DNA of 64,000 bases from Omnitrophica WOR_2 bacterium GWF2_43_52 (GCA_001805445.1 MHGF01000022.1:74613-138612); one strand, 5' to 3'. Numbered from the stretch's first letter, positions 859 through 29,760 are shown. The notes: generated by a model not told the origin, from the sequence alone. Numbers and translations: made by a program.

Positions 859-2250
859 TTAAAATGATTGAAAAACAATGTCTCCTTTTGCCTTGCTTAA
901 ACCGTGCGCCTCTTCATCAATCTCAACGCCAGCGAAATCATCCTGTTTATCAGGGCCAAAACTATACACAATCCAGCCATTCTCCTTTTTCACATATTTT
1001 AATGGCTTAAAATTGTCAAATGGATCTTCAGGGATTTTCTCAAGATAGGCAGGGACTAATTCTTGTAAATTCTCCAGCATCTTACCTTTTTCTATTTCGT
1101 AGCATCTTACGGCGACAGCCGCAATCAAAAGGTTTAGCCTGCTCACTGAGTTATAATAATAAACTATCTGTCGGTTATAACCAGGCATTGGCATTTGCAC
1201 AAAAAGCCTAGAAATCGTCTTGGCAATGGTTGAGGAAAACATCCATTGAAATAATTTATTCTTAAGAAGATACGGCTGTGTAAAAACGAACCACGAGAAT
1301 GGTGTAAACTTTAATACGCCTGATTGCTCATACCGTTTATTGAAGGCATTATAATTATTTTCTCGAAAAGCTGCGACGAGATAGGGATACCATTCATTAT
1401 CTGATTTATTATATTCTTTATAAATTGCCTGCCGAACCTTTTTGATAAGTTTTATTGGTTTGTCTTTAGCAGATTCTTTTCCCTTGTCAGGAGTAACAGC
1501 TTTTCCCGAGGCCTCTTGTTCCCTTTCGTTTTGTCCAAAATATTCCGAAAGAAAATCCGGAGAATCAAGCAGTCTTATTATAGTATTTCTATGAGCCGTT
1601 CTTTCTTCTTCAAAAGCGTTTTCCAGGGTAATTCTCAATTTATCGCTTTTTAGAGAAAGGAGCATACTAAGTATCGATTGGAAATCTTCGATATTGACGT
1701 TTTCATTTTGTTCAAGGTACCTGTCTATGGCAGAATATAATGGCGTTTCCGTAACCCAAACCGTTGCTTTTGTGAGCAGGATAAATGCTTTTTGTTGCTC
1801 TAAATGTCTGACATAACGCGTAAGCGCAAGATAATTTTCTAAAGCCAAATCGGGCTTATGTTCTTCTTCATACAATTTAGCTTCTAACATCATTAACTTT
1901 GCTATACGCAATTCTTTTAAATGGGAAGGCCCCATTGCAATTAAATCTTTTACCGGCGGCTTACCAAAAGTAAAGTCACAATAGGTGATCTCAGTTGCCT
2001 TCTTAAATCCCTCTATCGCTTCTTTGTTTTGGGCGAGAATAGCTTTTAATCCCTCATTACCCTCTTTCCAGCCATCCTTGATTACCTTATTTATCTCATC
2101 ATGAGGAAAAGATGAAATATCGGAAAATAAAGATGACGCTTGTTGATACATCGTAGCGGCATTTTCTTCAGCATAGCTTGAAGCAATAAATAATATGCTA
2201 GATAGAAAGATAAAAAAACAAGTACATCTTAACCTATTTTTGCTTGGCAT
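859..2250 (-). CDS. secreted hypothetical protein (463 aa) with N-terminal signal peptide
   Basis: ORF track. N-terminus MPSKNRLRCTCFFIFLSSILFIASSYAEE has a hydrophobic core plus an A-x-A-like cleavage region. No recognisable catalytic motif. Sits 3 bp downstream of the KS-like gene. Confidence 0.5.
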   Translation of the reverse strand: MPSKNRLRCTCFFIFLSSILFIASSYAEENAATMYQQASSLFSDISSFPHDEINKVIKDGWKEGNEGLKAILAQNKEAIEGFKKATEITYCDFTFGKPPVKDLIAMGPSHLKELRIAKLMMLEAKLYEEEHKPDLALENYLALTRYVRHLEQQKAFILLTKATVWVTETPLYSAIDRYLEQNENVNIEDFQSILSMLLSLKSDKLRITLENAFEEERTAHRNTIIRLLDSPDFLSEYFGQNEREQEASGKAVTPDKGKESAKDKPIKLIKKVRQAIYKEYNKSDNEWYPYLVAAFRENNYNAFNKRYEQSGVLKFTPFSWFVFTQPYLLKNKLFQWMFSSTIAKTISRLFVQMPMPGYNRQIVYYYNSVSRLNLLIAAVAVRCYEIEKGKMLENLQELVPAYLEKIPEDPFDNFKPLKYVKKENGWIVYSFGPDKQDDFAGVEIDEEAHGLSKAKGDIVFQSF

Positions 2251-4846: not shown

Positions 4847-5485
4847 CTAACAACCACAGGGCGGTGGGACTTTATTTTTAGAAACCACATCTTTATTTTC
4901 CGCTTCGCCTGTCCGCGTCACTTTAAATACTATATGGCCGCCGTCTGGACAAGTTACCGTATCTATAGAATCGGGGTCCTTCATAAAGAAAAACTTAGCC
5001 CCGAAATTAAGGGCAAATAATGCCGGAAACATCGTATGGAATGCCGCGCCGCAAAAATTAGGAATAGTCTCTAAACCTTTGGTTTCCCATTTCTGGCCTA
5101 AAACATACTTATAGGCGCAATGGCCCTCAGATTTAACGACTTCAACAGCCATCTTTTTTGGTTTTGGGCCTTTCCAATTTTGGTCTTTAGGTATAAACTC
5201 AACCTTACCATCCTTATCCAAAACCTCGGCCTTAAATTCTAACTTTCCTCCGTCAGGACAAGTGGTCAATAACGAGCGCTGGTTTTCCATAAAAGGAAAC
5301 CGCGCCCCAAAGCTTAAGGCATAGATTACAGGAAAAAGCACCTGGGCTAGGCCTAAACAAAAGTGCTCCGGAGGATGGGTAAAATCTTCTAAAATTAATA
5401 CATCCCCCAATTTATAGTTATGATAACAGTGCCCCCCGACCTTATTGACCGTAAGTTTTAATTTTGGAAACGGCGTCTCTACCAT
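4847..5485 (-). CDS. tandem-repeat Cys/His-rich protein (2 x ~100-aa 'HC..YKLG...TCPDGG' domains)
   Basis: 212 aa. Two internal repeats each carry a GHC.[HY].YKLG motif, an F/LFPxxxALxFGA[RK]F motif and a TCPDGG motif, and the protein ends in CGC. May be related to small TIGR04076-like proteins, recalled from memory and not verified. Confidence 0.55.
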   Translation of the reverse strand: MVETPFPKLKLTVNKVGGHCYHNYKLGDVLILEDFTHPPEHFCLGLAQVLFPVIYALSFGARFPFMENQRSLLTTCPDGGKLEFKAEVLDKDGKVEFIPKDQNWKGPKPKKMAVEVVKSEGHCAYKYVLGQKWETKGLETIPNFCGAAFHTMFPALFALNFGAKFFFMKDPDSIDTVTCPDGGHIVFKVTRTGEAENKDVVSKNKVPPPCGC

Positions 5486-9427: not shown

Positions 9428-12400
9428 TTATACTTTATCCGATTCCAGGGCAATAAGCAATCCCTTTAGGGAGGGTTCGGTGGCAGGCAATTTTTCATCC
9501 TCTTCCTCGCGCCGAAGGATATCGGCAAGCATAGCGCGAACCTGGTCTATTCTCTCTTCAGAGAGCGGACTGGCCACAGCTGCTGCCGTGTATTCGCCAA
9601 TGCGCTGGACAGACGGCCGGATCCCGGCGTTAAAGACAGCTTGAATTTGAGACCATTCTTTATCCAAATCCGACTTAGGGGTTATAGACAGCGGCCTAGA
9701 GACTAAAGACTGGAGACTTTGAATTTGCTGGGTTTGGATAGGTAGGGCGGCAAAATCGATGCCACCCTTGTCATCGCTGACTGATGAGGAGCTTGTTGAA
9801 TCCAAACTAATCTTATATACACCACCTTCATCAGAATAAATAATCACGGTTGATTCATTAATTACTTCTATCTTTTCTGGAATAATTGACAAACATGGCC
9901 AAACATTCAGGCTATTACTCGCAAAACGAATTGGCTTACCAACATAGGCAGAGGTCATAGGATCCCATAATTCTCCTTTGAGCTTTGTATTCGGCCTTAC
10001 TCCTTTTAATTCTTCTTTCTTCCAAAAAGTATTATTTTCGTCACTTCCACCGACTAATTCTAACGTGACTTTTGCATCCTCTTTAAATTTCTCGAAAACT
10101 TCTTCCTTAGATACGTTTCCTTTCTCTGGTTCCAACAAATAATTATATTGCTTACCAAAAAACAGCACGTTTCCTAAATGCTTAGCCACCTCGGCGAACC
10201 TGCCTAAAGAAGGCTTACAGGCACGTGCAGAATTAAAAAGATATTCTGCCCCTGCCACTGCTACTGCCTCTTTGGGTGTAGTTTTCCAATATTGCGTATA
10301 TCTTTTCAAGGCAACATTTGCATCTTGATATTTAGAATCGTTCTTCAATTCTTCATAACTATCTTCGCCCACGTAACACACCAGCCTTCCGCCATCTTCT
10401 CGATACACCCAATCTCCGTAATTAAAATCGCGAATCTCAGTATAATTCCCTTTTAACTCTCTTTTCAGCTCATCTAATGTCTTCAACTTGCCATTATGAA
10501 ACGCGCCGTAAAACCCAGCTTTGCGGGTAATCTCAATCCACGCATCAAAAGACACTATCGGATTGCTATTCTTATCGCTTGAAAGTGATATTTTATGCAT
10601 AATCTCATGCCAAAATGTTTTGGCCAAGTCTATGAAATTATTCTCATTCCGGACACCATTGATAAATATCGTATGGACTGTTTTTTGGCCAACCCACCCC
10701 CCAGCATTAACATCCAGCTCCGCAAAATCTATTTTTATGGGTATTTTTATCTTTCCCAGCAAATCTTTCGGAAACGATCCTAATATCTTTCTTACGTCTC
10801 CAAAACGTGATGGTGCCACATAAGAGAGAAATTCTATGTTTAATCCTTCCCTTATATCTCGCACTAACAAGAGATAACCCTCAAGGTCTTTTATGGTTTG
10901 CGAGTTATCAATTTTTCTCATACTGCCTAATTCAGACAATATCCTGCTTAACTTCTGAGAATCAATCCGACCGGACGTCTCAAATAGACCCTGTTCATTC
11001 TCTATATATAAATGCACCAGTTCTACCACATATTCATTAAATTCCGACCCTTTACTTTTAAGTATTTTCCCTAACAACTCTTTAGGGGACATCTTCTTTA
11101 TAGCCACTGCTTCCAAAAAATAAGTTTCCTTTATATGTTTAAGGAAAGACACATAATCTCTTAGACCAACCAACGCTACCAGCCTTTTCCTTTCCTTTCT
11201 TATTTCAGCTTCCGGCAATTCTGTATTTATCTGAACAATTACGTTATTTAACACATCCAGATTTATCTCATCGCTTTCCTTATTATCCTTCTGCTTAAGA
11301 TACTTAGCGATGTATTCTTTTATACCGTCATTCAGCCTTCCGGCACCTATATTCTTTTTTATAATCCATTTCACAAAATCTTCAAGAGATAACTCCCTTA
11401 ATTTTTCTGGTGAAGCTGCATATTTATCAAAATCGTGCTTTTCAAAACCTGCATTTCCCACCGCCGAGCTGGCGGAGGAACCATCTATAGGCAAATTAAT
11501 AATTTGTTTCCTTTCTACAGCTGAACTTACAGATAATAATTTACCTATTCCCCTATTATCTCTAACATTAGACAAATTAATCGCGCTTGTTTCATTAGGC
11601 ATAGTAAATGTTTCTTCTGTCATTACGTTAGTTAATGTAGCTGGCTTATAGTTATACTCAGCCATTACAAATTCTTCTCCGTCATGCCAATCTATAAAAA
11701 TCTTAGTCCCTTCATAACCCTCAGGCATATCACCAGTAAAACCAATCCAGAGATCTCTTTTTGTTTTTAGATTCTGGGCATAAAGAACATTCTCACCAGG
11801 GTCATATAGATATTTAAAATTCTCTTTATCCTTATCTTCACACACTTTCAGCTTGAAGGTGGCATGGGTTATAGGGTTAGTAACTTCTATTGTTCCATCG
11901 GCTCGCAATTCACTAAGTAGCCCCTGCCGCATTCTTAGTAAATGCTGCTCTCGCTCCTTCACTGTTTTTTCTTCTCCACCGGTGTCCTCAGAATAAAACG
12001 AGCAACCTCGAAAAATAGTGCGAAAAGGAGTTATATCTATGCCAGCCTCTATAAATTCTTTTTTCAACTCTGCTATAAACTGTGTGAGAAGAAAAGGAGA
12101 ATTTCTATACCTTGAAAAATATTCCTGCCGATGGTCTTTTCGAGCCGCGTCTGTAGAAGGATAGATAATGTCCCACAACAACTTCGTCTGAGGCTTAGTC
12201 GAATGATCGTTATCCTTAATTTCAAGGCTGTCATGAATTATTCTAAACAAAAATCTTTGTAATTCTGAAACCTTCAAGTCACTTGAAAGTAATCGGTCGC
12301 TATTAATGTCTTCTATCACTTTCTTAATATCACTCATTGTAATTGTGTTACCCCATTCCAGCTTTACGTCTGCGGAATCCTCTACCGCCGAGCTGGCGGG

Positions 12401-15400
12401 GGCAGGAGCACCTGTAGATTCATCTTGAAGCGGCACACCCCATAAATTAAGCACCTTTTCTATATCTCGAATATATTCTTCACCAATCTCTTTTTTAGGA
12501 TCGAGTTTAATCCGATCCTTTATTTTCTCTATTTGATCCCTCCAAGCCTTTATACGTGTTTCTAACTCGCCTATTTCAGAAGCAAATTTAAGTTCTTCTT
12601 CTAATATTCTCGGATGGGCATGTTGAAAAAAAAAGTTAAAGTCAGAATCAATAGCCCCTCTTTCTACAAATTTTTGCTCAAGTAATTCATGTAAAAATAC
12701 AGATTTTGTAGGAGAAATGCCTAATTCCTGACAAAACGCATGATAAGCCGCGGGAGAATAATATATGCCCTCCTTCTGGACAGACGGATGAAACATCCAT
12801 ACAATGGATGGTATGGATTCTGGGGCCATATATCTTGTAGCTTTTTCAATTTCATCCCATACTTTGCCTGCGCCACCCGCTAATTCCCTAACTCTTTTGA
12901 TCAATTCCGCAGATGCCCTATCCAACATAAACATCGTAATTCCTATTTTTACCTTAAAAACTCCAATTTCTTCTATAAATTTTTCAAGAGTCATTTTCCT
13001 AATTTTATCCTTGGAACCTATTTTGTTTTCAAGATATTCTGCGGTATCCTTCACCGCAGAATCTATTACATTGGAATCGGGTTTAGCCTTAGGCTGATTA
13101 TGAGCGCTGGCCATCTCCATTTGACTCACTACCTCTGCGATATTACGACTCTTTAAAGCACCCCAGATGTTTTTAGCGTCCAAATTATCTTTACTACCGT
13201 TTGCCAAAGTTACCAGAGACAGCTCCTTAGGCTCTGGATTCCGTCCAAAAAAGCTCATCAAAGAAGAAGAAGCTACTTTTTCTTTTTCACTTATTTCTTC
13301 CACCGCCGAGCTAGGCACATTATTATATGATTTTTCGCTATTGATACTATTTGTTCGATTTAAACCAACCCTTCTTACCATATCGTCTTCGGTAGGTAAC
13401 CTTTTTCCATGAACCCAAAGGGTAAGTCCTGGGTTCTTCTCTGTTATCTCCTTTAGTGCCGACTGATAATCCGGAACAAACATTTTGGCTGTCCAGCCTT
13501 CATAACCATATCCGCCAAAATAATCCAGATTAGTTACTTCTACTTTTTCTGAACTCTTTTTTACAAATATCAATTTTTTAGAATACTCGGCAAAAACTTT
13601 CTCTGCCTGATCCCTGAGAAATTCAGGGACTAAAATATAGTCTATATCTTCAAAACTGACTTCCTGAACACTCCAAGCTAAAGCACCACTTTTACCCGTA
13701 AGCAAGCCTATATCTTTCTTCTTAATAGTGTCAAATTGAGAGACAAAGAGAACAGAATGCATAACCCGCTCCTCCATCATTTCAGATAGAAGGCCATATC
13801 CATGAAGCAAACGTAAATCTTCCCCGTATCTTTCTGTAACAACTGGTAATACCGCATTGCCGTCGCGTCCATTATATAATGCGTCATAGGAAGTATTCAT
13901 AAATCCATTTCTTATTCCTTCTTTAGCCAATTCCTCTACATCTTCCAAAGATAATCCGGGGAGTCTATAGCTCTTATATATTTCCCCTGTTTGCTTAATG
14001 ATTACATTCCATGTCGTGCCATCATCTCCTTTCTCTAATGACAATGTAGGATTGATTATGACCCCATAAACTATAGGTGCTGGCGTTCGCGAGGATAGCG
14101 ACGTATCAACACGCAAACCTCCTCTTTTAATTTGCTCAAGTTGATAAACAATCTCGTCTCCGACCCGTTTCGAAATAAAAAATCCTAATTGCCTGCCTAA
14201 TGCCTTTGGAGATGACAACATACTCAAATCTACAGATAGAAGATAACTCAAAGATTGACCGCTGTGCCCGGTAACAGGATTGAATCTATCCATAATTATT
14301 CTATTTACCCTATATTCCCAATTATTAGCTGGAGATGTAAATTGAGAAACCGCCTTATCAATAAATATTGCCAGATTTTCTTTTCCTGCCCACTGAGCAT
14401 AATCTTTAAAAAGCTCTTCTAAATAGCTTAATCCTGCCACATCATTATTTTCTGTCCGCATAAATCTAACAACATCCTCTCCAGAGGTGCCAATACCAGC
14501 TGCCTTTCCTATGATTGTTGCTACACCATATTTGTTCAACGCTTCTGCAAATATTTTATAAGACTGCTCAATAATTGAAGATGAAGCTCTATCAGTTGCA
14601 AAGGACTCTATTAAAAATTTAGTTCTCGGAGGACTAATTGTCTTAGCAGGAATCTTAGAGATTGCGCTGCTAACTTGTTCCGTTCCAAACATCATCCCCC
14701 CGCTCATATACTTGCGGATACTCTGGCCCATAGGAGTATATATCGGCTCAGTGAGGTTGTATTCGCCATCTTGGAATGATTTCTGGTATTGCTGGAAGTA
14801 ATCTTGCTTGTCATACAGTTCTTTAGAAACCAAATTAGTCAAAGCCCCGGAATCTATGAGCTTGAAGTAATCATTGGCTTTTTCTGTCCTCTGTTCCCTG
14901 TTCTCTGTCATCTGCGAGCGAAAGCGAGCTTTAAACCACTGCGCCAAGATGAGCGAATAATACACCTGCCGAAGAGAAGCGTATCTCTTTGAGGTATTCA
15001 CCTGATAGGTAAGCTTAGGGATTACCAATTCTCTGATAAGCTGGGTAGAATATTCATTGAGCTCCTTTAGCCTTGGATCTTTGAAACTATAATTTATTAT
15101 CGTCCCTCGTCCTTCATCCTTCATCCCTCGTAAATAATCCTCCTCCAGCATCACTTTTAGGGTTGCTTTGTATATGTACGCATTATCAGGGGCTTCTCTG
15201 ATGATTATCTCATTGGGCACTATCCAGGGGCGGGTTAAGGTGGGTATGGTAATATTCTCCGTTCCAAATAATTCTTCTGCTTTCTTATAGAGTTTATCCC
15301 AGTAAACTTTTCCTTCAGGGTCTTGGGGTGAAGTAAAGTTTGCGGTGTCCTTCTTTAGCTGGACATCTGCTTCTAAGAATATCCTGCCGATATCAGTCAT

Positions 15401-15868
15401 TGCTACGTCATCATCTATGATGTTATCCGGTGAATCCGGCCTTAGGTTTACCCAGAATTTATCATTAGGCAGGCTTAAGCCGATAAAGAAGTATTTCAAT
15501 AGCTCTTTGGTAGCATTATTGAGCTCATTAGCTGGTGAGCTGGTTAGCTCATTAGCTAAATGGTTATCAAATTTAGTATCTCCTTTGTCTAACAATAGCT
15601 GAAAGTCATTGCTTTGGCTATCGTAGGAGATGTACCTTAGATGTAAGGGACGGAATTTGTCTTGGGGGATAACCGCATTACGGGCTTGGTTAAAGTAACC
15701 AGAAATATCCAGAGTCTGGGCTACTTGGGCAAAGCTGGTTTGCTCAAAGATAAGGCAGAAACAAAAGAAAAAATGGGCTATGCGCCCGCCACACTGCCTT
15801 GGCGGGCGTCCGCCTATGCTTTGTGGTGGACGTTGTGCGTTATGAGTCATGTCGAATACGATAGGCAA
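9428..15868 (-). CDS. giant multidomain protein A (2146 aa) of unknown function, sharing N- and C-terminal modules with the 26062-29616 paralog
   Basis: Single uninterrupted ORF. The first ~430 aa are ~85% identical to paralog B. The C-terminal ~100 aa (GGIDFAALPI...TEPSLKGLLIALESD) resemble the B C-terminus. An internal HExxH motif (FWHEIMHKISL) is present. The SSAVE linker motif recurs four times. The N-terminus has a long charged region before a hydrophobic stretch, IAHFFFCFCLIF. Confidence 0.8.
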   Translation of the reverse strand: MPIVFDMTHNAQRPPQSIGGRPPRQCGGRIAHFFFCFCLIFEQTSFAQVAQTLDISGYFNQARNAVIPQDKFRPLHLRYISYDSQSNDFQLLLDKGDTKFDNHLANELTSSPANELNNATKELLKYFFIGLSLPNDKFWVNLRPDSPDNIIDDDVAMTDIGRIFLEADVQLKKDTANFTSPQDPEGKVYWDKLYKKAEELFGTENITIPTLTRPWIVPNEIIIREAPDNAYIYKATLKVMLEEDYLRGMKDEGRGTIINYSFKDPRLKELNEYSTQLIRELVIPKLTYQVNTSKRYASLRQVYYSLILAQWFKARFRSQMTENREQRTEKANDYFKLIDSGALTNLVSKELYDKQDYFQQYQKSFQDGEYNLTEPIYTPMGQSIRKYMSGGMMFGTEQVSSAISKIPAKTISPPRTKFLIESFATDRASSSIIEQSYKIFAEALNKYGVATIIGKAAGIGTSGEDVVRFMRTENNDVAGLSYLEELFKDYAQWAGKENLAIFIDKAVSQFTSPANNWEYRVNRIIMDRFNPVTGHSGQSLSYLLSVDLSMLSSPKALGRQLGFFISKRVGDEIVYQLEQIKRGGLRVDTSLSSRTPAPIVYGVIINPTLSLEKGDDGTTWNVIIKQTGEIYKSYRLPGLSLEDVEELAKEGIRNGFMNTSYDALYNGRDGNAVLPVVTERYGEDLRLLHGYGLLSEMMEERVMHSVLFVSQFDTIKKKDIGLLTGKSGALAWSVQEVSFEDIDYILVPEFLRDQAEKVFAEYSKKLIFVKKSSEKVEVTNLDYFGGYGYEGWTAKMFVPDYQSALKEITEKNPGLTLWVHGKRLPTEDDMVRRVGLNRTNSINSEKSYNNVPSSAVEEISEKEKVASSSLMSFFGRNPEPKELSLVTLANGSKDNLDAKNIWGALKSRNIAEVVSQMEMASAHNQPKAKPDSNVIDSAVKDTAEYLENKIGSKDKIRKMTLEKFIEEIGVFKVKIGITMFMLDRASAELIKRVRELAGGAGKVWDEIEKATRYMAPESIPSIVWMFHPSVQKEGIYYSPAAYHAFCQELGISPTKSVFLHELLEQKFVERGAIDSDFNFFFQHAHPRILEEELKFASEIGELETRIKAWRDQIEKIKDRIKLDPKKEIGEEYIRDIEKVLNLWGVPLQDESTGAPAPASSAVEDSADVKLEWGNTITMSDIKKVIEDINSDRLLSSDLKVSELQRFLFRIIHDSLEIKDNDHSTKPQTKLLWDIIYPSTDAARKDHRQEYFSRYRNSPFLLTQFIAELKKEFIEAGIDITPFRTIFRGCSFYSEDTGGEEKTVKEREQHLLRMRQGLLSELRADGTIEVTNPITHATFKLKVCEDKDKENFKYLYDPGENVLYAQNLKTKRDLWIGFTGDMPEGYEGTKIFIDWHDGEEFVMAEYNYKPATLTNVMTEETFTMPNETSAINLSNVRDNRGIGKLLSVSSAVERKQIINLPIDGSSASSAVGNAGFEKHDFDKYAASPEKLRELSLEDFVKWIIKKNIGAGRLNDGIKEYIAKYLKQKDNKESDEINLDVLNNVIVQINTELPEAEIRKERKRLVALVGLRDYVSFLKHIKETYFLEAVAIKKMSPKELLGKILKSKGSEFNEYVVELVHLYIENEQGLFETSGRIDSQKLSRILSELGSMRKIDNSQTIKDLEGYLLLVRDIREGLNIEFLSYVAPSRFGDVRKILGSFPKDLLGKIKIPIKIDFAELDVNAGGWVGQKTVHTIFINGVRNENNFIDLAKTFWHEIMHKISLSSDKNSNPIVSFDAWIEITRKAGFYGAFHNGKLKTLDELKRELKGNYTEIRDFNYGDWVYREDGGRLVCYVGEDSYEELKNDSKYQDANVALKRYTQYWKTTPKEAVAVAGAEYLFNSARACKPSLGRFAEVAKHLGNVLFFGKQYNYLLEPEKGNVSKEEVFEKFKEDAKVTLELVGGSDENNTFWKKEELKGVRPNTKLKGELWDPMTSAYVGKPIRFASNSLNVWPCLSIIPEKIEVINESTVIIYSDEGGVYKISLDSTSSSSVSDDKGGIDFAALPIQTQQIQSLQSLVSRPLSITPKSDLDKEWSQIQAVFNAGIRPSVQRIGEYTAAAVASPLSEERIDQVRAMLADILRREEEDEKLPATEPSLKGLLIALESDKV

Positions 15869-15877
15869 TGCCAGGCA

Positions 15878-15940
15878 TAAACAAGTATCATTTTTACTTG
15901 ACTATGCCTGGCATTGTGCGGGGCTATTAGCTACCTAAAA
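15878..15940. repeat. AATGCCAGGCATA ... TATGCCTGGCATT hairpin element (14-bp stem, ~24-nt loop) in the giant gene A leader
   Basis: Inverted repeat seen directly. Near-identical copies at 29625-29680 and, with a short loop, at 20698-20735. Confidence 0.65.
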
Positions 15941-16082
15941 TATACTATATTTTAAGCCCAAAACAAGGCTAAAACAGGGGGTTTGGGAAAGCGCTTTCTG
16001 CAACCGCAGATTACGCGGATTTTGAAAAAAACAAGTCCGCGGATTGCGCAGATTGAAAGGGACGGTTGTTCCTATATATAGT

Positions 16083-26061: not shown

Positions 26062-29000
26062 TCAGTTATGAGGGTTCACTACTATTCGGCTTAAGGCAAG
26101 CTGTACTTCTTGGGCAGGATTATCTGACTCAAGCGCGATAAGGATTTGTTTTAAGGCGGGCTCGGTGGGAATAAACTTTTGCTCCTGCGCGCGTAAAATT
26201 TCGGCGATATGGGTAATGACAACTTCTATCTGCTCACTGCTTACCGCTGACGATTGGCTTGCCGTATAGGCCATATCGCGTATGCGCGCGGTTGCGGGGA
26301 TAAAATCATTCTTGAGCATCACTTCAATCTGCCGGCACTCCTCGTCAAAATTAATATTCAGGCTTATGGGCGCAGAACCAAACATAGAAAGTTGATTCCC
26401 TAGAGCTGGCTGCGCGGTTATAGGCAATGCGCGTAAGTCTATACCTCCCACATCATGAACTTTTTCATTAAGGGGCGAGGAATTCGCTATTGCGGCGATA
26501 CCGCCATGATCTGCTAAATATGTTAAAAGCCCTTTATAATTTGTAAACTTATTTTCTTTAACAATTCTCGCAATATTTTCTATGGGCAAAGCTTCTAAAA
26601 TGCTAAAGAGTGTTTGCCTCGTGCCGCCAATTTCCTTTAACAAAGGAATAATCGTATCCGGATTCTTCGCGCGGGCAAACATATCCAGGAAATTCTCAGG
26701 GATATTATGAATATTTTGTTTTGGTTTTTTTAAATAATTAGACACTATTTCTCTGATTGTTTTGCTCTCCACTTCACTCATTTCATCTACAATTCTCTTT
26801 ATCTCTTCCCTTGATTTATCATCAACGGTCATGTCAGGGAATTCCAACATCAAGCGTACACACCTAAATATAGTATCTAACTTTAATAAACGATTTGTTC
26901 CATGGCGCGACACGGCAGGAATAAGGCTAAGGCGTTTTTGTATAATATCTTCGGCATAATCTCCTCCCGCGCTACTTGTAACTACCCAACCGCTCGTATC
27001 CTTATGAACGATAAGCCTGTTAAGGGAAAAATCACGCAAAATATCTACTTTGGCATATAGTTCATCTTCGTAAAGGAATAATTCTTCAGAATCAGGGTCC
27101 TTACCAAGGTTAAGGACATGCAAAGGGGTATCTTTAAATTTTATCCTTGTCATATCCTCTATAAAATAAATAATCTCACTTACCGATCGCACTTTGCTCT
27201 TATCATAACCCCTAATAACAATATCAATATCTGCCGCTCTCAAAGACGGCTTTATCCCTGTAACCATTTTCCGCGCTATCCCTCCCGCAAACCCAAAGTA
27301 TACTCCTTTTTTTTCTAACTCGTTTGTAATATATAAGATATCCTCGTCCACGGCTATATTAATTCCTCGGTTTTCTTTTCTTTCTGAATCTTCCAGCCGT
27401 GCAAGTTGAAATGATTTTCCATCTACCTCCACCACCGAGCTGGCAGCTGATATTGAAACACATCCTCCTACATAACTTTGCTCTGGCCGTGTATGAAAGC
27501 CATATTTTTTTAATTGAGCTATATCGCCATCTGGCAAATGCCCTATGAATTCCTTTGACTGATAACCTCCTAAAATAATCTTGTCAATTCTAATGTTACG
27601 ATCTTTAATCATGTTTAATATAAGGCCAACGCTGGTCAAGTTAGTTACCGGCCCATAATCACCAGGCCAAGTTCCGATGTTGCTTATTAAGACAATGCTA
27701 TCTTTTATCTCAGGGATTTTTGGCATAAGTGTATCTTTATTCGTCAAATCTCCGGCAATACACCAAAAATGCACACCTTCCCTAAACTTGTTAGCCTCAA
27801 AATGTTGCCTTGCTTTGTTCAAAGAGGCTTCATCATTATCTATAAGTATGGCCTGGGAAGCCCCCAGCTTAAGCGCCGTCAAAGCAAGCAGTCCGTCTCC
27901 GGATCCGGAATCAATAACACACTTTCCTGCGATATTGCTATTCAGCATTAAAAGTATAGTCGCAGAAGTGAAAAGCTTCATCCTGCCGCCTTTTTCCTCC
28001 GATTCACCAATCGTGGAGTCAGATAAATCCGATACAACAATAGCTCTTTCTTTCAAGGCAGCGCGTAACTCCAAATCTTTCTCTAAATCCTCATACACTT
28101 CCTTGTCTATAAAAAACAAACCTCCGATCTTAACCAAATCATATCCTTGATGATTATCTTTGACTCTTACCAATAAAGTTGCCTGCTCTATTCCATTGTA
28201 AGTTACACTATCATCAATTTCCCTTTGAGCATGAATGTAATACTTTCTCTCCCCGCCAACCCCTTTAATTGCTTTCAATTCTTTCTCTATGCGCTGCCAA
28301 AGCTGTTTTTCTAAATTCGTAAGATACTTTATCGGGTAAGCATATGCGTCATTCATTATTTCTGGCATATCTTTTTTTGCTGGTATCATTGTAGTCACAG
28401 CCGAACTACTCATAAATCCTTCTATTCCTCCGCTCAGATACCTACGAATATTTTGGCCATAAGGGGTATAGACTGGTTCTGTAATATTATATTCGCCATC
28501 TTGGAATGATTTCTGGTATTGTTTAAAGTATTCTTCTTTATCATAAGGCTCTTTTGAAGTGAGGTTAGTCAAGTCTCTTGAATCAATAAGCTTACTATAG
28601 GGGTTATCCGGTTTACCGGTAAGCGAGTTAACCGGTTTACTGGCTAACCCGTTCACCGGCACACTAAATTTATTCTTAAACCACTGCGCCAATATAAGCG
28701 AGTAATACACTTGCCTAAGAGAAGCATATCTCTTTGAGGTATTCACCTGATAGGTGAGCTTAGGGATTATCAATTCTCTGATAAGCTGGGTTGAGTATTC
28801 ATTGAGCTCCTTTAGCCTGGGGTCTTTGAAATTGTATTGCTGCTGGCTGACAGCTGAAAGCTGAAAGCTTTTCAGATAGTCTTCTTCAAGCATCACTTTT
28901 AGCGTTGCCTTGTAGATATAAGCATTATCTGGGGATTCCCTGATGATGATTTCATTGGGCACGATCCAAGGACGGGTTAAGGTAGGTATAGTAATATTCT

Positions 29001-29616
29001 CTGAACCAAATAATTCCCCCGCCTTCTTATAGAGCTTATCCCAATATTGTTTGCCTTCTGGGGTCTGGGGTGAAGTAAAGTTCGCGGTATCCTTCTTTAG
29101 CTGGACATCCGCCTCTAAGAATATCCTGCCAATATCAGTCATTGCCAAGTCATCATCTATGATGTTATTTGGCGAATCCGGCCTTAGGTTGACCCAGAAT
29201 TTATCATTAGGCAGGCTTAAGCCTATGAAGAAATACCTGAGTAAATTTTGAGTCTCACCTTCAAGGGCTTTTTCTTGTTTCTCTGGTGACGTGGTGACCT
29301 GGTGACGGGGTGACTCTTTTAAGAAATCCCCTTTATCTACAAGAAGCTTAAAATCATTGCTTTGGCTATCGTAGGAGATGTATCTTAAGTGCAGTGGACG
29401 AAATTTATCTTGGGGAATAACCGCGTTACGGGCTTGGTTAAAGTAACTGGAGATATCCAGCGTCCGGGCTACTTGGGCAAAGACTGGCTGTTCAAAGATA
29501 AGGCAAAAACAAAGGAAAAAATGGGCTATGCGCCCGCCACACTGCTTTGGCGGGCGTCTGCCTATGCTTTGTGGCGGACGTTGTGCGTTATGAGTCATAT
29601 TGAATATGATAGGCAA
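26062..29616 (-). CDS. giant multidomain protein B (1184 aa): conserved N-module, class I SAM-methyltransferase-like motif, Pol-beta-type nucleotidyltransferase-like motif and conserved C-module
   Basis: The N-terminal ~430 aa are ~85% identical to giant A. The central segment VIDSGSGDGLLALTALKLGASQAILIDND is a GxGxG SAM-binding-like motif. GFAGGIARKMV...AADIDIVI fits the hG[GS]x9-13Dh[DE]h nucleotidyltransferase signature. The C-terminus GGIDLRALPI...TEPALKQILIALESD matches A. Confidence 0.75.
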   Translation of the reverse strand: MPIIFNMTHNAQRPPQSIGRRPPKQCGGRIAHFFLCFCLIFEQPVFAQVARTLDISSYFNQARNAVIPQDKFRPLHLRYISYDSQSNDFKLLVDKGDFLKESPRHQVTTSPEKQEKALEGETQNLLRYFFIGLSLPNDKFWVNLRPDSPNNIIDDDLAMTDIGRIFLEADVQLKKDTANFTSPQTPEGKQYWDKLYKKAGELFGSENITIPTLTRPWIVPNEIIIRESPDNAYIYKATLKVMLEEDYLKSFQLSAVSQQQYNFKDPRLKELNEYSTQLIRELIIPKLTYQVNTSKRYASLRQVYYSLILAQWFKNKFSVPVNGLASKPVNSLTGKPDNPYSKLIDSRDLTNLTSKEPYDKEEYFKQYQKSFQDGEYNITEPVYTPYGQNIRRYLSGGIEGFMSSSAVTTMIPAKKDMPEIMNDAYAYPIKYLTNLEKQLWQRIEKELKAIKGVGGERKYYIHAQREIDDSVTYNGIEQATLLVRVKDNHQGYDLVKIGGLFFIDKEVYEDLEKDLELRAALKERAIVVSDLSDSTIGESEEKGGRMKLFTSATILLMLNSNIAGKCVIDSGSGDGLLALTALKLGASQAILIDNDEASLNKARQHFEANKFREGVHFWCIAGDLTNKDTLMPKIPEIKDSIVLISNIGTWPGDYGPVTNLTSVGLILNMIKDRNIRIDKIILGGYQSKEFIGHLPDGDIAQLKKYGFHTRPEQSYVGGCVSISAASSVVEVDGKSFQLARLEDSERKENRGINIAVDEDILYITNELEKKGVYFGFAGGIARKMVTGIKPSLRAADIDIVIRGYDKSKVRSVSEIIYFIEDMTRIKFKDTPLHVLNLGKDPDSEELFLYEDELYAKVDILRDFSLNRLIVHKDTSGWVVTSSAGGDYAEDIIQKRLSLIPAVSRHGTNRLLKLDTIFRCVRLMLEFPDMTVDDKSREEIKRIVDEMSEVESKTIREIVSNYLKKPKQNIHNIPENFLDMFARAKNPDTIIPLLKEIGGTRQTLFSILEALPIENIARIVKENKFTNYKGLLTYLADHGGIAAIANSSPLNEKVHDVGGIDLRALPITAQPALGNQLSMFGSAPISLNINFDEECRQIEVMLKNDFIPATARIRDMAYTASQSSAVSSEQIEVVITHIAEILRAQEQKFIPTEPALKQILIALESDNPAQEVQLALSRIVVNPHN

Positions 29617-29760
29617 TGCCAGGCATAGTCAAGTGAAAATGACACTTGTTTATGCCTGGCATTGTGCGGGGCTATTAGCTACCTAAAATATACTACATTT
29701 TAAGTCCAAAACAAGGCTAAAACAGGGGGTTCGGGAAAGCGCTTTCTAATGAGGCCACAA
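29617..29760. promoter_or_regulatory. duplicated leader and promoter region of giant gene B, near-identical to 15869-16010 upstream of giant gene A; contains the AATGCCAGGCATA hairpin
   Basis: Nucleotide-level near-identity between the two regions, seen by direct comparison. The hairpin copy at 29625-29680 lies inside it. Confidence 0.6.

What the first reader, a model, noticed from the sequence alone, without database searches (positions are those of the whole stretch)
26062..29616. Giant protein B fuses a class I methyltransferase-like and a Pol-beta-type nucleotidyltransferase-like module
VIDSGSGDGLLALTALKLGASQAILIDND is a SAM-binding motif of the PrmA/RsmC type. GFAGGIARKMVTG...AADIDIVI fits the minimal NTase signature G[GS]x9-13DxD. 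MTase+NTase fusions in a >1000-aa scaffold are uncommon. They could modify a nucleic acid or protein target (nucleotidylation plus methylation) as in effector or defence enzymes.
Basis: partly seen in the sequence, partly recalled or inferred. Interest (0 to 1): 0.6.

Follow-up and report, generated by a model that had tools for sequence, protein, structure and literature searches.

The report
Modular Omnitrophota protein: methyltransferase plus nucleotidyltransferase cassettes
This 1,178-residue "hypothetical protein" of an Omnitrophota bacterium really does carry a methyltransferase and a nucleotidyltransferase domain, but they are two independently shuffled cassettes in a very large, apparently undescribed phylum-specific family whose members all share the same unknown N-terminal and C-terminal modules.

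Summary
The ORF (26062-29616, minus strand; the real start is probably ATG at 29598) is 100% identical to GenBank "hypothetical protein" entries from Omnitrophica WOR_2 MAGs.

Both domain calls hold:
- **Methyltransferase.** Residues ~530-720 are a class I SAM methyltransferase. Pfam PrmA scores 34 bits against a cut-off of 22, and PDB profile hits to PRMT/PrmA reach E=5e-8. All SAM-binding motifs are conserved in 8 homologs.
- **Nucleotidyltransferase.** Residues 735-1035 fold (pLDDT 93) like the head and neck of class II CCA-adding enzymes and poly(A) polymerase (Foldseek E=4e-6; profile vs 3h37 E=9e-4). GG and DxD are conserved in 24-25 of 25 relatives. The third catalytic carboxylate (D/E in the other 23) is His here.

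The "fusion" does not look like a dedicated bifunctional enzyme:
- The methyltransferase occurs without the nucleotidyltransferase in five relatives, and the reverse holds in others.
- The protein belongs to a family of >800 Omnitrophota proteins, with at least 14 in one MAG.
- Members share a signal-peptide-like N-terminus, an orphan ~350-aa N-module (no PDB fold match), variable enzyme cassettes and an orphan ~120-aa C-module (GGIDF...).
- Cassettes are separated by ASSAVE-type motifs that are 26-fold enriched.
- I found no HEPN partner and no defence-system signal.

Function is inferred, not shown.

The parts
26062..29598 (-). Gene for protein B (1178 aa from the ATG; the mechanical ORF starts at a TTG at 29616)
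   Evidence: ORF list and translation. The product is 100% identical to GenBank 'hypothetical protein' entries of Omnitrophica WOR_2 bacteria.
29599..29753 (-). Upstream leader/promoter region, 82-95% identical to the region upstream of paralog A
   Evidence: DNA alignment and sliding identity.
29614..29664 (-). Hairpin of 14+6 bp in the leader. Its 3' arm contains the TTG of the mechanical ORF start
   Evidence: RNA fold, z = -6.75. Rfam gave only spurious miRNA-precursor matches below threshold.
29476..29598 (-). N-terminal signal-peptide-like segment (aa 7-47: basic n-region, 12-aa hydrophobic core, VFA|Q)
   Evidence: Hydropathy scan: a single ~12-aa hydrophobic stretch in 115 of 120 family members and no other TM-like segment in B. 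No signal-peptide predictor was available, so this is inferred.
28414..29475 (-). Conserved N-module (aa 48-401), an orphan domain
   Evidence: 75% identical to protein A and 60-78% identical to more than 100 other proteins. No Pfam/NCBIfam hit. AF2 pLDDT 68, with no PDB or viral fold match.
28396..28413 (-). Junction motif MSSSAV (aa 402-407)
   Evidence: Punctuation-motif analysis.
27457..28395 (-). Methyltransferase cassette (aa 408-720): a conserved pre-domain plus a class I SAM-MTase core. Motif I VIDSGSGDG is at 27892-27918
   Evidence: Pfam PrmA 34.4 bits against a cut-off of 22. Conserved motifs in 8 homologs. PDB profile hits to PRMT/PrmA at E = 5e-8.
27427..27456 (-). Junction motif SISAASSVVE (aa 721-730) between the two cassettes
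   Evidence: The same ASSAVE-type motif ends the MTase cassette in P0003-P0007 and precedes the NTase cassette in P0002.
26512..27414 (-). Nucleotidyltransferase cassette (aa 735-1035). The GG...DID motif is at 27214-27294. His833, at the third-carboxylate position, is at 27118-27120
   Evidence: 25 relatives and conservation table. Profile vs PDB 3h37/4wby. AF2 pLDDT 93. Foldseek top hits are class II CCA-adding enzymes/PAP. Codons verified.
26065..26484 (-). Conserved C-module (aa 1045-1184; GGIDL at aa 1057), an orphan domain
   Evidence: Found at the extreme C-terminus of about 107 of 119 family members. No PDB or Pfam relatives.
9428..15868 (-). Paralog 'giant protein A' (2146 aa) with the same N-module (75% identity), the same C-module (39%) and the same upstream leader, but different cargo
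   Evidence: BLASTP, tblastn, DNA alignment. No Pfam/NCBIfam/PADLOC/PHROG hits.

Best explanation
Protein B is one member of a very large family confined to Omnitrophota.

**Architecture (shown).** Members share a signal-peptide-like N-terminus and a highly conserved ~350-aa N-module. One to several exchangeable enzyme or repeat cassettes follow. A conserved ~120-aa C-module closes the protein at the extreme C-terminus and begins with GGIDF. Short Ser-rich ASSAVE-type motifs separate the cassettes. B carries two cassettes:
- A class I SAM-dependent methyltransferase. Its SAM-binding half is closest to the protein N-methyltransferases PrmA and PRMT.
- A Pol-beta-fold nucleotidyltransferase built like the head and neck of class II CCA-adding enzymes and poly(A) polymerases. 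It has the GG and DxD motifs but His833 where relatives have the third metal-binding Asp/Glu. It lacks the body and tail domains that bind tRNA.

**Mechanism (inferred).**
- The protein is exported by Sec.
- The common end modules serve targeting, anchoring or assembly. They are not part of the catalysis.
- Each cassette acts on its own. The methyltransferase probably methylates a protein or nucleic-acid amine using SAM. The nucleotidyltransferase either transfers a nucleotidyl group with altered metal chemistry or merely binds nucleotide or RNA.
- SAM and NTPs are cytoplasmic metabolites. An exported protein of this kind would therefore be active only inside another cell. That fits the predatory or host-dependent lifestyle proposed for Omnitrophota.
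For: **Family architecture.**
- 822 homologs, almost all matching only aa ~29-400 and ~1045-1165 of B, with unrelated Pfam domains between them: radical SAM, M23, GNAT, kinases, metallophosphatase, HEAT, TPR, DnaJ, HD, NUDIX, TIM and GGDEF.
- Paralog A in the same window.
- 405 loci in GTDB species representatives, all Omnitrophota MAGs, with 14 of the top 80 in one MAG.
- GGIDF occurs in 106 of 120 proteins, the last occurrence at a median of 124 aa from the C-terminus.
- The junction motif occurs 154 times against 5.9 +/- 2.1 in shuffles.

**Independence of the cassettes.**
- P0003-P0007 share the N-module and the methyltransferase but not the nucleotidyltransferase.
- P0002, P0123, P0124 and P0137 carry the nucleotidyltransferase without this methyltransferase.

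**Methyltransferase.**

**Nucleotidyltransferase.**
- Conservation: G779 24/25, R782 24/25, D796 24/25, D798 25/25.
- Position 833 is D17/E6/H2.
- Profile vs 3h37 E = 9e-4 and vs 4wby E = 3e-3, with the motifs aligned.
- pLDDT 93, pTM 0.90.
- 11 of the 12 Foldseek hits with E <= 1e-3 are class II CCA-adding/tRNA-nucleotidyltransferase or poly(A) polymerase enzymes; the other is FAM46A, another nucleotidyltransferase.
- MdcG_C matches 15 of 25 relatives.

**Export signal.** One short N-terminal hydrophobic stretch and nothing else TM-like.

**Lifestyle context.**
- Giant Omnitrophota 'Archaeovorin' proteins carry the same domain repertoire and show the same cytoplasmic-enzyme-outside paradox (preprint 10.1101/2023.11.21.568195).
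- The abstract of PMC13153191 reports RNA of a predatory Omnitrophota epibiont inside archaeal cells.
Against: - No signal-peptide or topology predictor was run, so export is inferred from sequence features only.
- The N-module model is of only moderate confidence (pLDDT 68). Neither end module has any recognisable relative, so their role is a guess.
- Family members sit next to housekeeping genes (glmS-rsmI, fusA-cyclophilin; nuo and RND genes here), not next to secretion genes.
- Cargo such as J-domains, radical-SAM enzymes and kinases would be expected in the producer's own cytoplasm.
- The His at the third-carboxylate position may mean the nucleotidyltransferase is inactive.
- Only the SAM-binding half of the methyltransferase resembles known enzymes. 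Its substrate is unknown.
Confidence: 0.6

Rival explanations
1. The methyltransferase and nucleotidyltransferase form a dedicated bifunctional enzyme that modifies one nucleic-acid or protein target, by nucleotidylation plus methylation, as an effector or anti-phage defence enzyme.
For: Both domains are real. One other large protein, P0127 (2949 aa), carries both module types. PADLOC gives one hit to the methyltransferase of a methylation-associated defence system (mad2, E = 2e-5).
Against: - Each module occurs without the other in the closest relatives.
- In P0127 the two modules lie about 2,000 residues apart and in the opposite order.
- The PADLOC hit covers only the generic SAM motif (aa 553-611).
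- No HEPN or other partner is present in the protein, in its neighbours or in other carriers of the nucleotidyltransferase module.
- The neighbouring genes are nuo and RND efflux genes.
Confidence: 0.12
2. The protein is not exported. The N-terminal hydrophobic stretch tethers it to, or is buried in, a cytoplasmic assembly. The family is a way of localising or scaffolding housekeeping-type enzymes inside the Omnitrophota cell. The N- and C-modules act as oligomerisation or anchoring units.
For: - The cargo domains all need cytoplasmic cofactors: SAM, NTPs, ATP, DnaK, reduced Fe-S clusters.
- Syntenic placement downstream of glmS-rsmI or fusA in many genomes suggests core-genome functions.
- No secretion genes lie nearby.
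Against: The N-terminus has the canonical n-h-c layout of a Sec signal: basic residues, a 12-aa hydrophobic core too short for a TM helix, and V-x-A before the conserved mature end. This holds in 115 of 120 members. The positive-inside rule predicts that the bulk of the protein lies outside.
Confidence: 0.2
3. The nucleotidyltransferase cassette of this particular protein is a pseudo-enzyme. With His in place of the third catalytic carboxylate and no tRNA-binding body or tail, it only binds a nucleotide or an RNA/protein ligand. This rival is not exclusive of the best explanation.
For: - Position 833 is D or E in the 23 more distant relatives and His only in B and P0002.
- The module is shorter than in its relatives, which continue into a conserved 'SDFDxAF...' extension.
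- Pfam nucleotidyltransferase models do not reach significance on B itself.
Against: GG, R782 and both Asp of DxD are retained in B and in P0002, which is only 65% identical. The active-site frame is therefore still under selection. His can ligate Mn2+ or Zn2+.
Confidence: 0.3
4. Family members are polyproteins. The ASSAVE-type motifs are cleavage sites where a protease releases the individual cassettes from the N- and C-modules. This rival is also not exclusive of the best explanation.
For: - The motif is 26-fold enriched in the variable region. It sits at the N-module/cargo junction in 32 cases, just before GGIDF in 39, and inside cargo 83 times in 50 proteins.
- In B and P0002 it coincides with cassette boundaries.
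- Small residues at -3 and -1 (A-S-S|A) would suit a signal-peptidase-like specificity (my own knowledge).
- West-Roberts et al. proposed proteolytic processing of giant Omnitrophota proteins.
Against: There is no evidence of cleavage and no protease gene is associated. The motif could equally be a flexible or glycosylated linker, or a recombination hotspot between cassettes.
Confidence: 0.2

Closest known systems
PrmA (ribosomal protein L11 methyltransferase, PF06325) and PRMT-type protein arginine methyltransferases
   Same: - Class I Rossmann SAM-binding half is present: motif I VIDxGxGxG, an acidic residue at the end of beta-2 (D593) and the DL of motif III.
- The motif IV 'SNI' resembles the PrmA 'ANI'.
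- Pfam PrmA scores above the gathering threshold. PRMT1/6/7, CARM1 and PrmA structures are the best PDB profile hits.
   Different: - Only about 60-70 residues align.
- NCBIfam PrmA equivalog scores are far below cut-off (31 against 183 bits).
- The substrate-binding half and the ~110-aa pre-domain have no known relatives.
- The domain is embedded in an apparently exported multidomain protein.
Class II tRNA nucleotidyltransferases / bacterial poly(A) polymerase (PF01743; PDB 3h37, 4wby, 1miv, 3aqm, 7otr, 4x4w)
   Same: - Predicted head-plus-neck fold.
- GGxxR...DxD motif A.
- Counterparts of motif B (RDFSLNRL against RRDFTINA), motif C (GG..Y..D) and motif D (D..LRF.R against EDxxRhLRAhRF) line up in the profile alignment.
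   Different: - No Pfam PF01743 hit on B, and only 12-16% identity.
- GG-DxD spacing is 16 rather than 12.
- The third carboxylate is His.
- The base-reading Arg of motif D is not evidently conserved.
- There are no body or tail domains for tRNA binding.
- The module occurs as an internal cassette of 1-5.5-kaa proteins.
MdcG C-terminal domain (phosphoribosyl-dephospho-CoA transferase, PF10620)
   Same: It is the best sequence-level Pfam match to the catalytic head: 15 of 25 relatives, best E = 3e-7, and E = 0.015-0.09 for B. It shows that a nucleotidyltransferase fold of this kind can modify a protein Ser rather than an RNA end (my own knowledge).
   Different: It is below the gathering score on B and covers only about 60 residues. 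The helical neck of the module resembles CCA-adding enzymes, not MdcG.
'Archaeovorin'-type giant proteins of Omnitrophota (West-Roberts et al., bioRxiv 10.1101/2023.11.21.568195)
   Same: - Same phylum.
- Same repertoire of cytoplasmic-type enzyme domains strung together: methyltransferases, radical SAM, NUDIX, HEAT, TPR, PPDK_N, GGDEF and TIM.
- Same N-terminal signal and the same localisation paradox.
- Relatives of B's nucleotidyltransferase module sit in 4-5.5-kaa proteins.
   Different: - B is 1.2 kaa and has a single hydrophobic segment.
- B has no SecA-like domain and no multiple TM regions.
- The conserved N-module, C-module and ASSAVE punctuation are not mentioned in the papers I could search.
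Polymorphic toxin/effector families (conserved trafficking end plus variable payload)
   Same: The logic is the same: conserved ends, swappable payloads and many paralogs per genome.
   Different: This is an analogy only. Both ends are conserved here. The payloads are not typical toxins, there are no immunity genes, no secretion-system linkage was seen, and members are syntenic core-genome genes.

Membership tests
Class I SAM-dependent methyltransferase | Motif I GxGxG in a beta1-loop-helix | tested here: met
   VIDSGSGDG (aa 567-575) is invariant as VIDxGxGxG in 8 of 8 homologs.
Class I SAM-dependent methyltransferase | Acidic residue at the end of beta-2 (binds the ribose) and an acidic/DL motif III (binds the adenine) | tested here: met
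   D593 (ILID) is D or E in all 8 homologs. D623-L624 is invariant.
Class I SAM-dependent methyltransferase | Complete seven-stranded Rossmann-like fold | not tested
The length from motif I to the junction (~155 aa) and the conserved SNIGxW and GGY motifs are compatible with it.
PrmA (L11 methyltransferase) orthologs | Full-length match to the equivalog model (NCBIfam TIGR00406, cut-off 183 bits) | tested here: not met
   30.8 bits, aligned over aa 562-615 only. The Pfam PrmA domain model is passed (34.4 against 22 bits) but over only 57 of 296 positions.
Pol-beta superfamily nucleotidyltransferase | hG[GS] ... DxD on adjacent strands, conserved in homologs | tested here: met
   G779 24/25, D796 24/25, D798 25/25. 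The spacing is 16 rather than the textbook 9-13. In the model the GG lies at the strand/helix turn and the DxD on the next strand.
Pol-beta superfamily nucleotidyltransferase | Third catalytic carboxylate on the neighbouring strand | tested here: not met
   His833 in B and in P0002, against D (17) or E (6) in the other 23 relatives. The position aligns with D of 'RIDIATAR' in 3h37 and lies in strand 98-100 of the model.
Pol-beta superfamily nucleotidyltransferase | Fold | tested here: met
   AF2 pLDDT 93, pTM 0.90. All 12 Foldseek PDB hits with E <= 1e-3 are nucleotidyltransferases.
Class II tRNA nucleotidyltransferase / poly(A) polymerase (PF01743) | Significant match to the family profile | tested here: not met
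   No PF01743 hit on B at E <= 1. Only 2 of 25 relatives hit, at E = 0.075. The reverse search (family profile against PDB sequences) reaches 3h37 at E = 9e-4.
Class II tRNA nucleotidyltransferase / poly(A) polymerase (PF01743) | Head plus neck architecture with motifs A-D | tested here: inconclusive
   The fold and the order of motifs agree. TM-scores are only 0.36-0.45. The EDxxR base-reading residues of motif D are not clearly conserved.
Class II tRNA nucleotidyltransferase / poly(A) polymerase (PF01743) | Body and tail domains that hold the tRNA/RNA | tested here: not met
   The module ends after about 300 aa and runs straight into the C-module. More distant relatives have a further conserved extension that is absent here.
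Minimal NTase-HEPN pairs / anti-phage defence nucleotidyltransferases | Cognate HEPN or other defence partner; match to defence-system models | tested here: not met
   No HEPN in B, in its neighbours or in seven other carriers of the module. PADLOC matched only the generic SAM motif. AbiEii hit weakly in 2 of 25 relatives.
Archaeovorin-type giant proteins | Giant size, many TM regions, SecA DEAD-like domain | tested here: not met
   1178 aa, one hydrophobic segment and no SecA domain. Only the domain repertoire of the wider family overlaps.
Omnitrophota N-module/C-module 'bookend' family (defined here) | Signal-like N-terminus plus the N-module, and GGIDF plus the C-module at the extreme C-terminus | tested here: met
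   B aligns over aa 29-400 and 1045-1165 with more than 100 proteins. GGIDL lies 128 aa from the C-terminus.

The most novel reading that the evidence does not exclude
B and A belong to an undescribed, phylum-wide Omnitrophota system. An orphan N-terminal export/anchoring module and an orphan C-terminal module bracket freely exchangeable enzyme cassettes punctuated by ASSAVE-type sites. The products would be processed or displayed and delivered into prey or host cells. There, cytoplasm-dependent enzymes (methyltransferases, nucleotidyltransferases, kinases, radical-SAM enzymes and others) would rewire the victim. In effect this would be a new kind of cassette-based effector or polyprotein platform.
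Probability: 0.25. Interest if true: 0.85.

Novelty: new variant of a known kind. Interest (0 to 1): 0.6.

Why it matters
Omnitrophota are abundant, uncultured ultra-small bacteria thought to be predators or parasites. How they act on other cells is unknown.

This locus shows that two recognisable enzyme folds sit in a protein annotated as hypothetical. One of them is a rare, divergent branch of the CCA-adding/poly(A)-polymerase fold with an Asp-Asp-His site.

The locus also exposes a family of hundreds of proteins, a dozen or more per genome. They reuse the same two unknown end modules around swappable enzymes. If those modules are a targeting or delivery device, the family is a ready-made catalogue of candidate effectors. 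It would also offer a handle on the puzzle of cytoplasmic-type enzymes predicted to lie outside Omnitrophota cells.

If the modules are only linkers or scaffolds, the finding is a useful annotation and two new domain families.

Tried and rejected
- **Adenovirus penton base.** Single-sequence phmmer gave weak hits of aa 120-196 to penton-base chains (E = 0.04-0.5). They were not recovered with a family profile. The predicted structure has no penton, PDB or viral match. Rejected as chance.
- **Defence or phage origin.** PADLOC matched only the generic SAM motif. PHROGs gave nothing, and there is no HEPN.
- **Known RNA element in the upstream hairpin.** Rfam gave only sub-threshold miRNA-precursor look-alikes. 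The hairpin is not general upstream of family members in other genomes.
- **Dedicated partner gene.** Clustering ORFs around 79 family loci found only housekeeping neighbours: glmS, rsmI, fusA and cyclophilin.
- **C-module.** No PDB or Pfam relative. There is a PPR-like 20-residue motif, but it is too short to mean anything.
- **Tool failures.**
  - The search for homologous proteins with the nucleotidyltransferase module alone returned nothing, although P0001 and P0002 contain it.
  - The same tool, given the methyltransferase profile, returned three weak hits and missed P0003-P0007. Rarity claims therefore rest on the exhaustive representative search.
  - The first attempt to model the N-module failed because the alignment was too large.

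Full report
**1. The observation**

The window holds an uninterrupted ORF at 26062-29616 on the minus strand, 1184 codons from a TTG.

The product read from the ATG at codon 7 (26062-29598, 1178 aa) is 100% identical to protein P0145. P0145 carries the GenBank accessions OGX00178.1, OGX21569.1 and HAH19455.1. These are 'hypothetical protein' entries of Omnitrophica WOR_2 bacterium GWF2_43_52 and GWA2_44_7.

The TTG lies in the 3' arm of a strong hairpin (29614-29664). That hairpin is part of a ~155-nt upstream stretch 82-95% identical to the region upstream of the other large ORF in the window. I therefore take the ATG as the start.

The chromosomal setting is ordinary. A nuo operon lies on the plus strand and ends 63 nt from the gene's stop. 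An RND efflux operon (OEP-HlyD-AcrB) lies upstream on the same strand.

**2. The methyltransferase**

- Pfam PrmA (PF06325) matches aa 561-617 with 34.4 bits, above its gathering score of 22. Several generic class I methyltransferase models match the same stretch.
- NCBIfam PrmA equivalogs match the same ~55 residues but at ~31 bits against cut-offs of 183-327. This is not a PrmA ortholog.
- I aligned the region (aa 425-735) with five relatives that share it at 50-57% identity (P0003-P0007) and two distant ones (P0127 and P0037, 31% and 23%). The following are invariant:
  - VIDxGxGxG (motif I);
  - an Asp/Glu at the end of beta-2 (D593);
  - the D623-L624 pair (motif III);
  - SNIGxW (motif IV-like, compare the PrmA 'ANI');
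  - a GGY motif.
- A profile of this alignment finds PRMT1/6/7, CARM1, PrmA and small archaeal methyltransferases in the PDB at E = 5e-8 to 1e-5. Only the SAM-binding half aligns.

I conclude that this is a genuine class I SAM-dependent methyltransferase whose cofactor half is nearest to protein N-methyltransferases. The substrate half and the conserved ~110-aa pre-domain are unassignable. I did not model this region.

**3. The nucleotidyltransferase**

On the query alone Pfam gives only a sub-threshold MdcG_C match, E = 0.09 for the whole protein and 0.015 for the isolated module.

An exhaustive HMMER search of 1.84 billion representative proteins used a two-sequence profile (B plus P0002, aa 735-1035). 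It found 25 proteins including B's own cluster. Nineteen have E <= 1e-10. Most matches are internal segments of proteins of 1-5.5 kaa. The module is therefore real but rare.

Conservation across the 25-sequence alignment:

| Position | Residue counts |
|---|---|
| G779 | G in 24/25 |
| R782 | R in 24/25 |
| D796 | D in 24/25 |
| D798 | D in 25/25 |
| 833 | D 17, E 6, H 2 |

The GG-to-DxD spacing is 16 throughout the family, so the textbook x9-13 is not literally met. The residue at position 833 sits about 35 positions downstream of DxD on the next strand. It is His only in B and in P0002, which is 65% identical to B in this module.

A profile of the 25 sequences hits the Thermotoga tRNA-nucleotidyltransferase-related protein 3h37 (E = 9e-4, profile positions 32-254) and the Aquifex A-adding enzyme 4wby (E = 3e-3). 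The alignment places these pairs opposite each other:

| Module | 3h37 / class II consensus |
|---|---|
| GGtARrM...DlDi | GGFVRDLLLG...DIDI |
| gikvDilN | GLRIDIATAR |
| sraltldRl | RRDFTINAM |
| GG.Ylqdi | GG.YRDL |
| dlesvLrfvRl | DPTRILRAIRF |

AlphaFold2 with this alignment gives pLDDT 93 and pTM 0.90. Foldseek against the PDB returns 12 hits with E <= 1e-3, led at E = 4e-6 to 1.6e-4 and probability 0.97-1.0:
- E. coli poly(A) polymerase (3aqm/3aql);
- CCA-adding enzymes from Planococcus, Bacillus stearothermophilus, Arabidopsis and human mitochondria;
- an Aquifex tRNA-processing enzyme;
- FAM46A.

Scanning all 25 members against Pfam gives MdcG_C in 15 (best E = 3e-7). It gives scattered weak hits to Polbeta, NTP_transf_2, AbiEii and PolyA_pol, all nucleotidyltransferase-named families.

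The module is a divergent relative of the head and neck of class II tRNA nucleotidyltransferases and poly(A) polymerases.

Three features set B's copy apart.
- The third metal ligand is His. It is conserved between two 65%-identical proteins, so it is not a sequencing error.
- I cannot show that the base-reading Arg of motif D is conserved.
- The module stops after ~300 residues and runs into the family's C-module. More distant relatives continue into a further conserved segment, 'SDFDxAF...'.

There is no equivalent of the tRNA-binding body and tail. The MdcG resemblance is a reminder that this fold can also modify a protein side chain. Whether the acceptor is RNA or protein is open.

**4.

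The full-length homolog search returned 822 proteins.
- Only seven cover more than a third of B.
- The rest match only aa ~29-400 at 60-78% identity and aa ~1045-1165 at ~30-45% identity. These two stretches lie at their extreme N- and C-termini respectively.
- Between them they carry 300-1,500 residues of unrelated sequence. Pfam domains there include radical SAM/B12-binding, peptidases M23 and M48, GNAT, several methyltransferase types, RIO and Ser/Thr kinases, HPr kinase, metallophosphatase+FHA, HD, NUDIX, triose-phosphate isomerase, PPDK_N, GGDEF, DnaJ, HEAT and TPR.

The 2146-aa 'giant protein A' of this window (9428-15868) has the same N-module (75% identity over 418 aa) and C-module (39%), with different and unannotatable cargo.

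A scan of one genome per GTDB species found 405 loci. All listed loci are from Omnitrophota MAGs, a few mislabelled as Planctomycetales or 'bacterium'. Fourteen of the best 80 come from a single MAG (JAUSCZ01) and seven from another.

Shared features of the family:
- **N-terminus.** It has the layout of a Sec signal: basic residues, a 12-residue hydrophobic core (median Kyte-Doolittle 3.0, present in 115 of 120 members) and V-F-A before a conserved Gln. There is no other TM-like segment in B. No predictor was available, so this is inference.
- **N-module.** It has no Pfam, NCBIfam, PADLOC or PHROG match. Its AF2 model (pLDDT 68, pTM 0.70, mainly helical) has no PDB or viral structural neighbour. 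The best E-values are 2.4 and 0.07.
- **C-module.** It starts with a GGIDF motif, present in 106 of 120 proteins. The last occurrence lies at a median of 124 residues from the C-terminus. It has no PDB or Pfam relative.

**5. Cassettes and punctuation**

P0003-P0007 share B's N-module and methyltransferase cassette up to 'SISAASSAVE' and then diverge. P0002 has a different first cassette, then 'SASSAVE', then B's nucleotidyltransferase cassette and the C-module.

P0123 (4294 aa), P0137 (3731 aa) and P0124 (1328 aa) carry the N-module, a nucleotidyltransferase cassette and the C-module. P0127 (2949 aa) has a nucleotidyltransferase cassette at 365-632 and a B-like methyltransferase at 2692-2906.

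The two enzymatic modules therefore travel independently.

The motif [SA]SS[APSV][VLIA] (commonest form ASSAVE) occurs 154 times in the variable regions of 107 family proteins. Composition-preserving shuffles give 5.9 +/- 2.1. The occurrences break down as follows:
- 32 lie right after the N-module;
- 39 lie within 30 residues before GGIDF;
- 83 lie deeper inside the cargo, in 50 proteins.

In B the motifs are MSSSAV (402-407) and SISAASSVVE (721-730), with a weaker ANSSPL (1043-1048). They delimit B as N-module | methyltransferase | nucleotidyltransferase | C-module. Whether the motif is a linker, a processing site or a recombination joint cannot be decided here.

**6. Genomic behaviour of the family**

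Clustering ORFs in the 3-kb flanks of 79 loci found no dedicated partner. The recurrent neighbours are glmS plus rsmI (16-18 loci) and fusA plus a cyclophilin (5-7 loci), upstream on the same strand. Individual members are thus syntenic, vertically inherited core-genome genes. They are not mobile cargo and not part of an obvious secretion or defence island.

**7. How it most likely works**

Shown:
- the domain identities;
- the conservation pattern;
- the family architecture;
- the independence of the cassettes.

Inferred:
- export by Sec;
- a targeting, anchoring or assembly role for the two end modules;
- independent action of the two enzymes;
- activity in a compartment that supplies SAM and NTPs.

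For an exported protein, that compartment would be another cell. The same paradox, cytoplasmic-type enzymes predicted outside the cell, was noted for the giant 'Archaeovorin' proteins of Omnitrophota, which draw on the same domain repertoire (preprint 10.1101/2023.11.21.568195). One recent abstract reports RNA from the predatory Omnitrophota epibiont V. archaeovorus inside archaeal cells (PMC13153191).

The main rival is that the hydrophobic N-terminus is not a secretion signal and the family scaffolds housekeeping enzymes inside the cell. The housekeeping synteny and the nature of the cargo favour that view.

The His at position 833 leaves two possibilities open: a working Asp-Asp-His site or a binding-only module.

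**8. Comparison with the literature, and novelty**

The enzyme folds are known. The nucleotidyltransferase module is a rare, divergent branch not captured by Pfam.

I searched the Omnitrophota papers available to me for N-terminal, C-terminal, paralog or conserved-region descriptions. I found no mention of the N-module, the C-module or the ASSAVE punctuation. This is absence in a limited library, not proof of novelty.

I rate the finding as a new variant of known kinds. The larger interest lies in the family.

Noticed in passing
window 9428-15868 (-): 'Giant protein A' (2146 aa) is a paralog of B. Its N-module is 75% identical and its C-module 39% identical, with ASSAVE-type motifs at aa 429, 1465 and 2026. 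Its ~1,600-aa cargo has no Pfam, NCBIfam, PADLOC or PHROG match.
   Followed up: partly
window 29599-29753 and about 15851-16005 (-): The ~155 nt upstream of A and B are 82-95% identical. They include a promoter-like TTGTTT-16-TATATT and a 14+6-bp hairpin (B: 29614-29664; z = -6.75) just before the ATG. This could be a shared leader (co-regulation) or a gene-conversion tract. The hairpin is not in Rfam and is not general in the family.
   Followed up: partly
window 29596-29616 (-): The mechanical ORF start (TTG at 29616) lies inside the hairpin. GenBank and ENA gene calls start at the ATG at 29598 (1178 aa).
   Followed up: yes
family proteins P0002-P0120, Q and A: The Ser-rich punctuation motif [SA]SS[APSV][VLIA] (commonest form ASSAVE) is 26-fold enriched in the variable regions. 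It sits at cassette boundaries, right after the N-module and just before GGIDF.
   Followed up: partly
loci L001-L079 (e.g. L013 319-2711, L029 48-2638): Individual family members are syntenic across genomes. They lie downstream of glmS plus rsmI in 16-18 loci and downstream of fusA plus a cyclophilin in 5-7 loci.
   Followed up: partly
L016 and L021, -50 to -18 from the family gene start: Two family members in different MAGs have perfect 15-16-bp hairpins with similar sequence (TGTAGGGA...) immediately upstream of the start codon. Several others have 9-11-bp hairpins there.
   Followed up: no
window 26065-26484 (-), C-module aa ~1085-1110: The C-module consensus 'LDxEWxQIQxMxNAGIxPS' resembles one pentatricopeptide-repeat motif. 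It gave weak hits to a designed PPR protein and to Pfam AEP1 in 3 of 22 members. It is too short to interpret.
   Followed up: partly
P0001 (ENA contig of 61 kb): A near-identical copy of B in another assembly diverges after aa ~1005 and ends early ('...LPATIPIHQIIKGF'), so it lacks the C-module. This is probably a frameshift or an assembly difference.
   Followed up: no
P0121-P0141 downstream of the NTase module: In most distant relatives the nucleotidyltransferase module continues into a conserved 'SDFDxAF...Y(A/V)xxY(S/T)' segment that B and P0002 lack.
   Followed up: no
window 859-2250 (-) and 4847-5485 (-): Two ORFs (463 and 212 aa) lie beside a pair of beta-ketoacyl synthase genes, a ketopantoate-reductase-like gene and an AMP-binding enzyme gene. 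Neither has a Pfam match.
   Followed up: no
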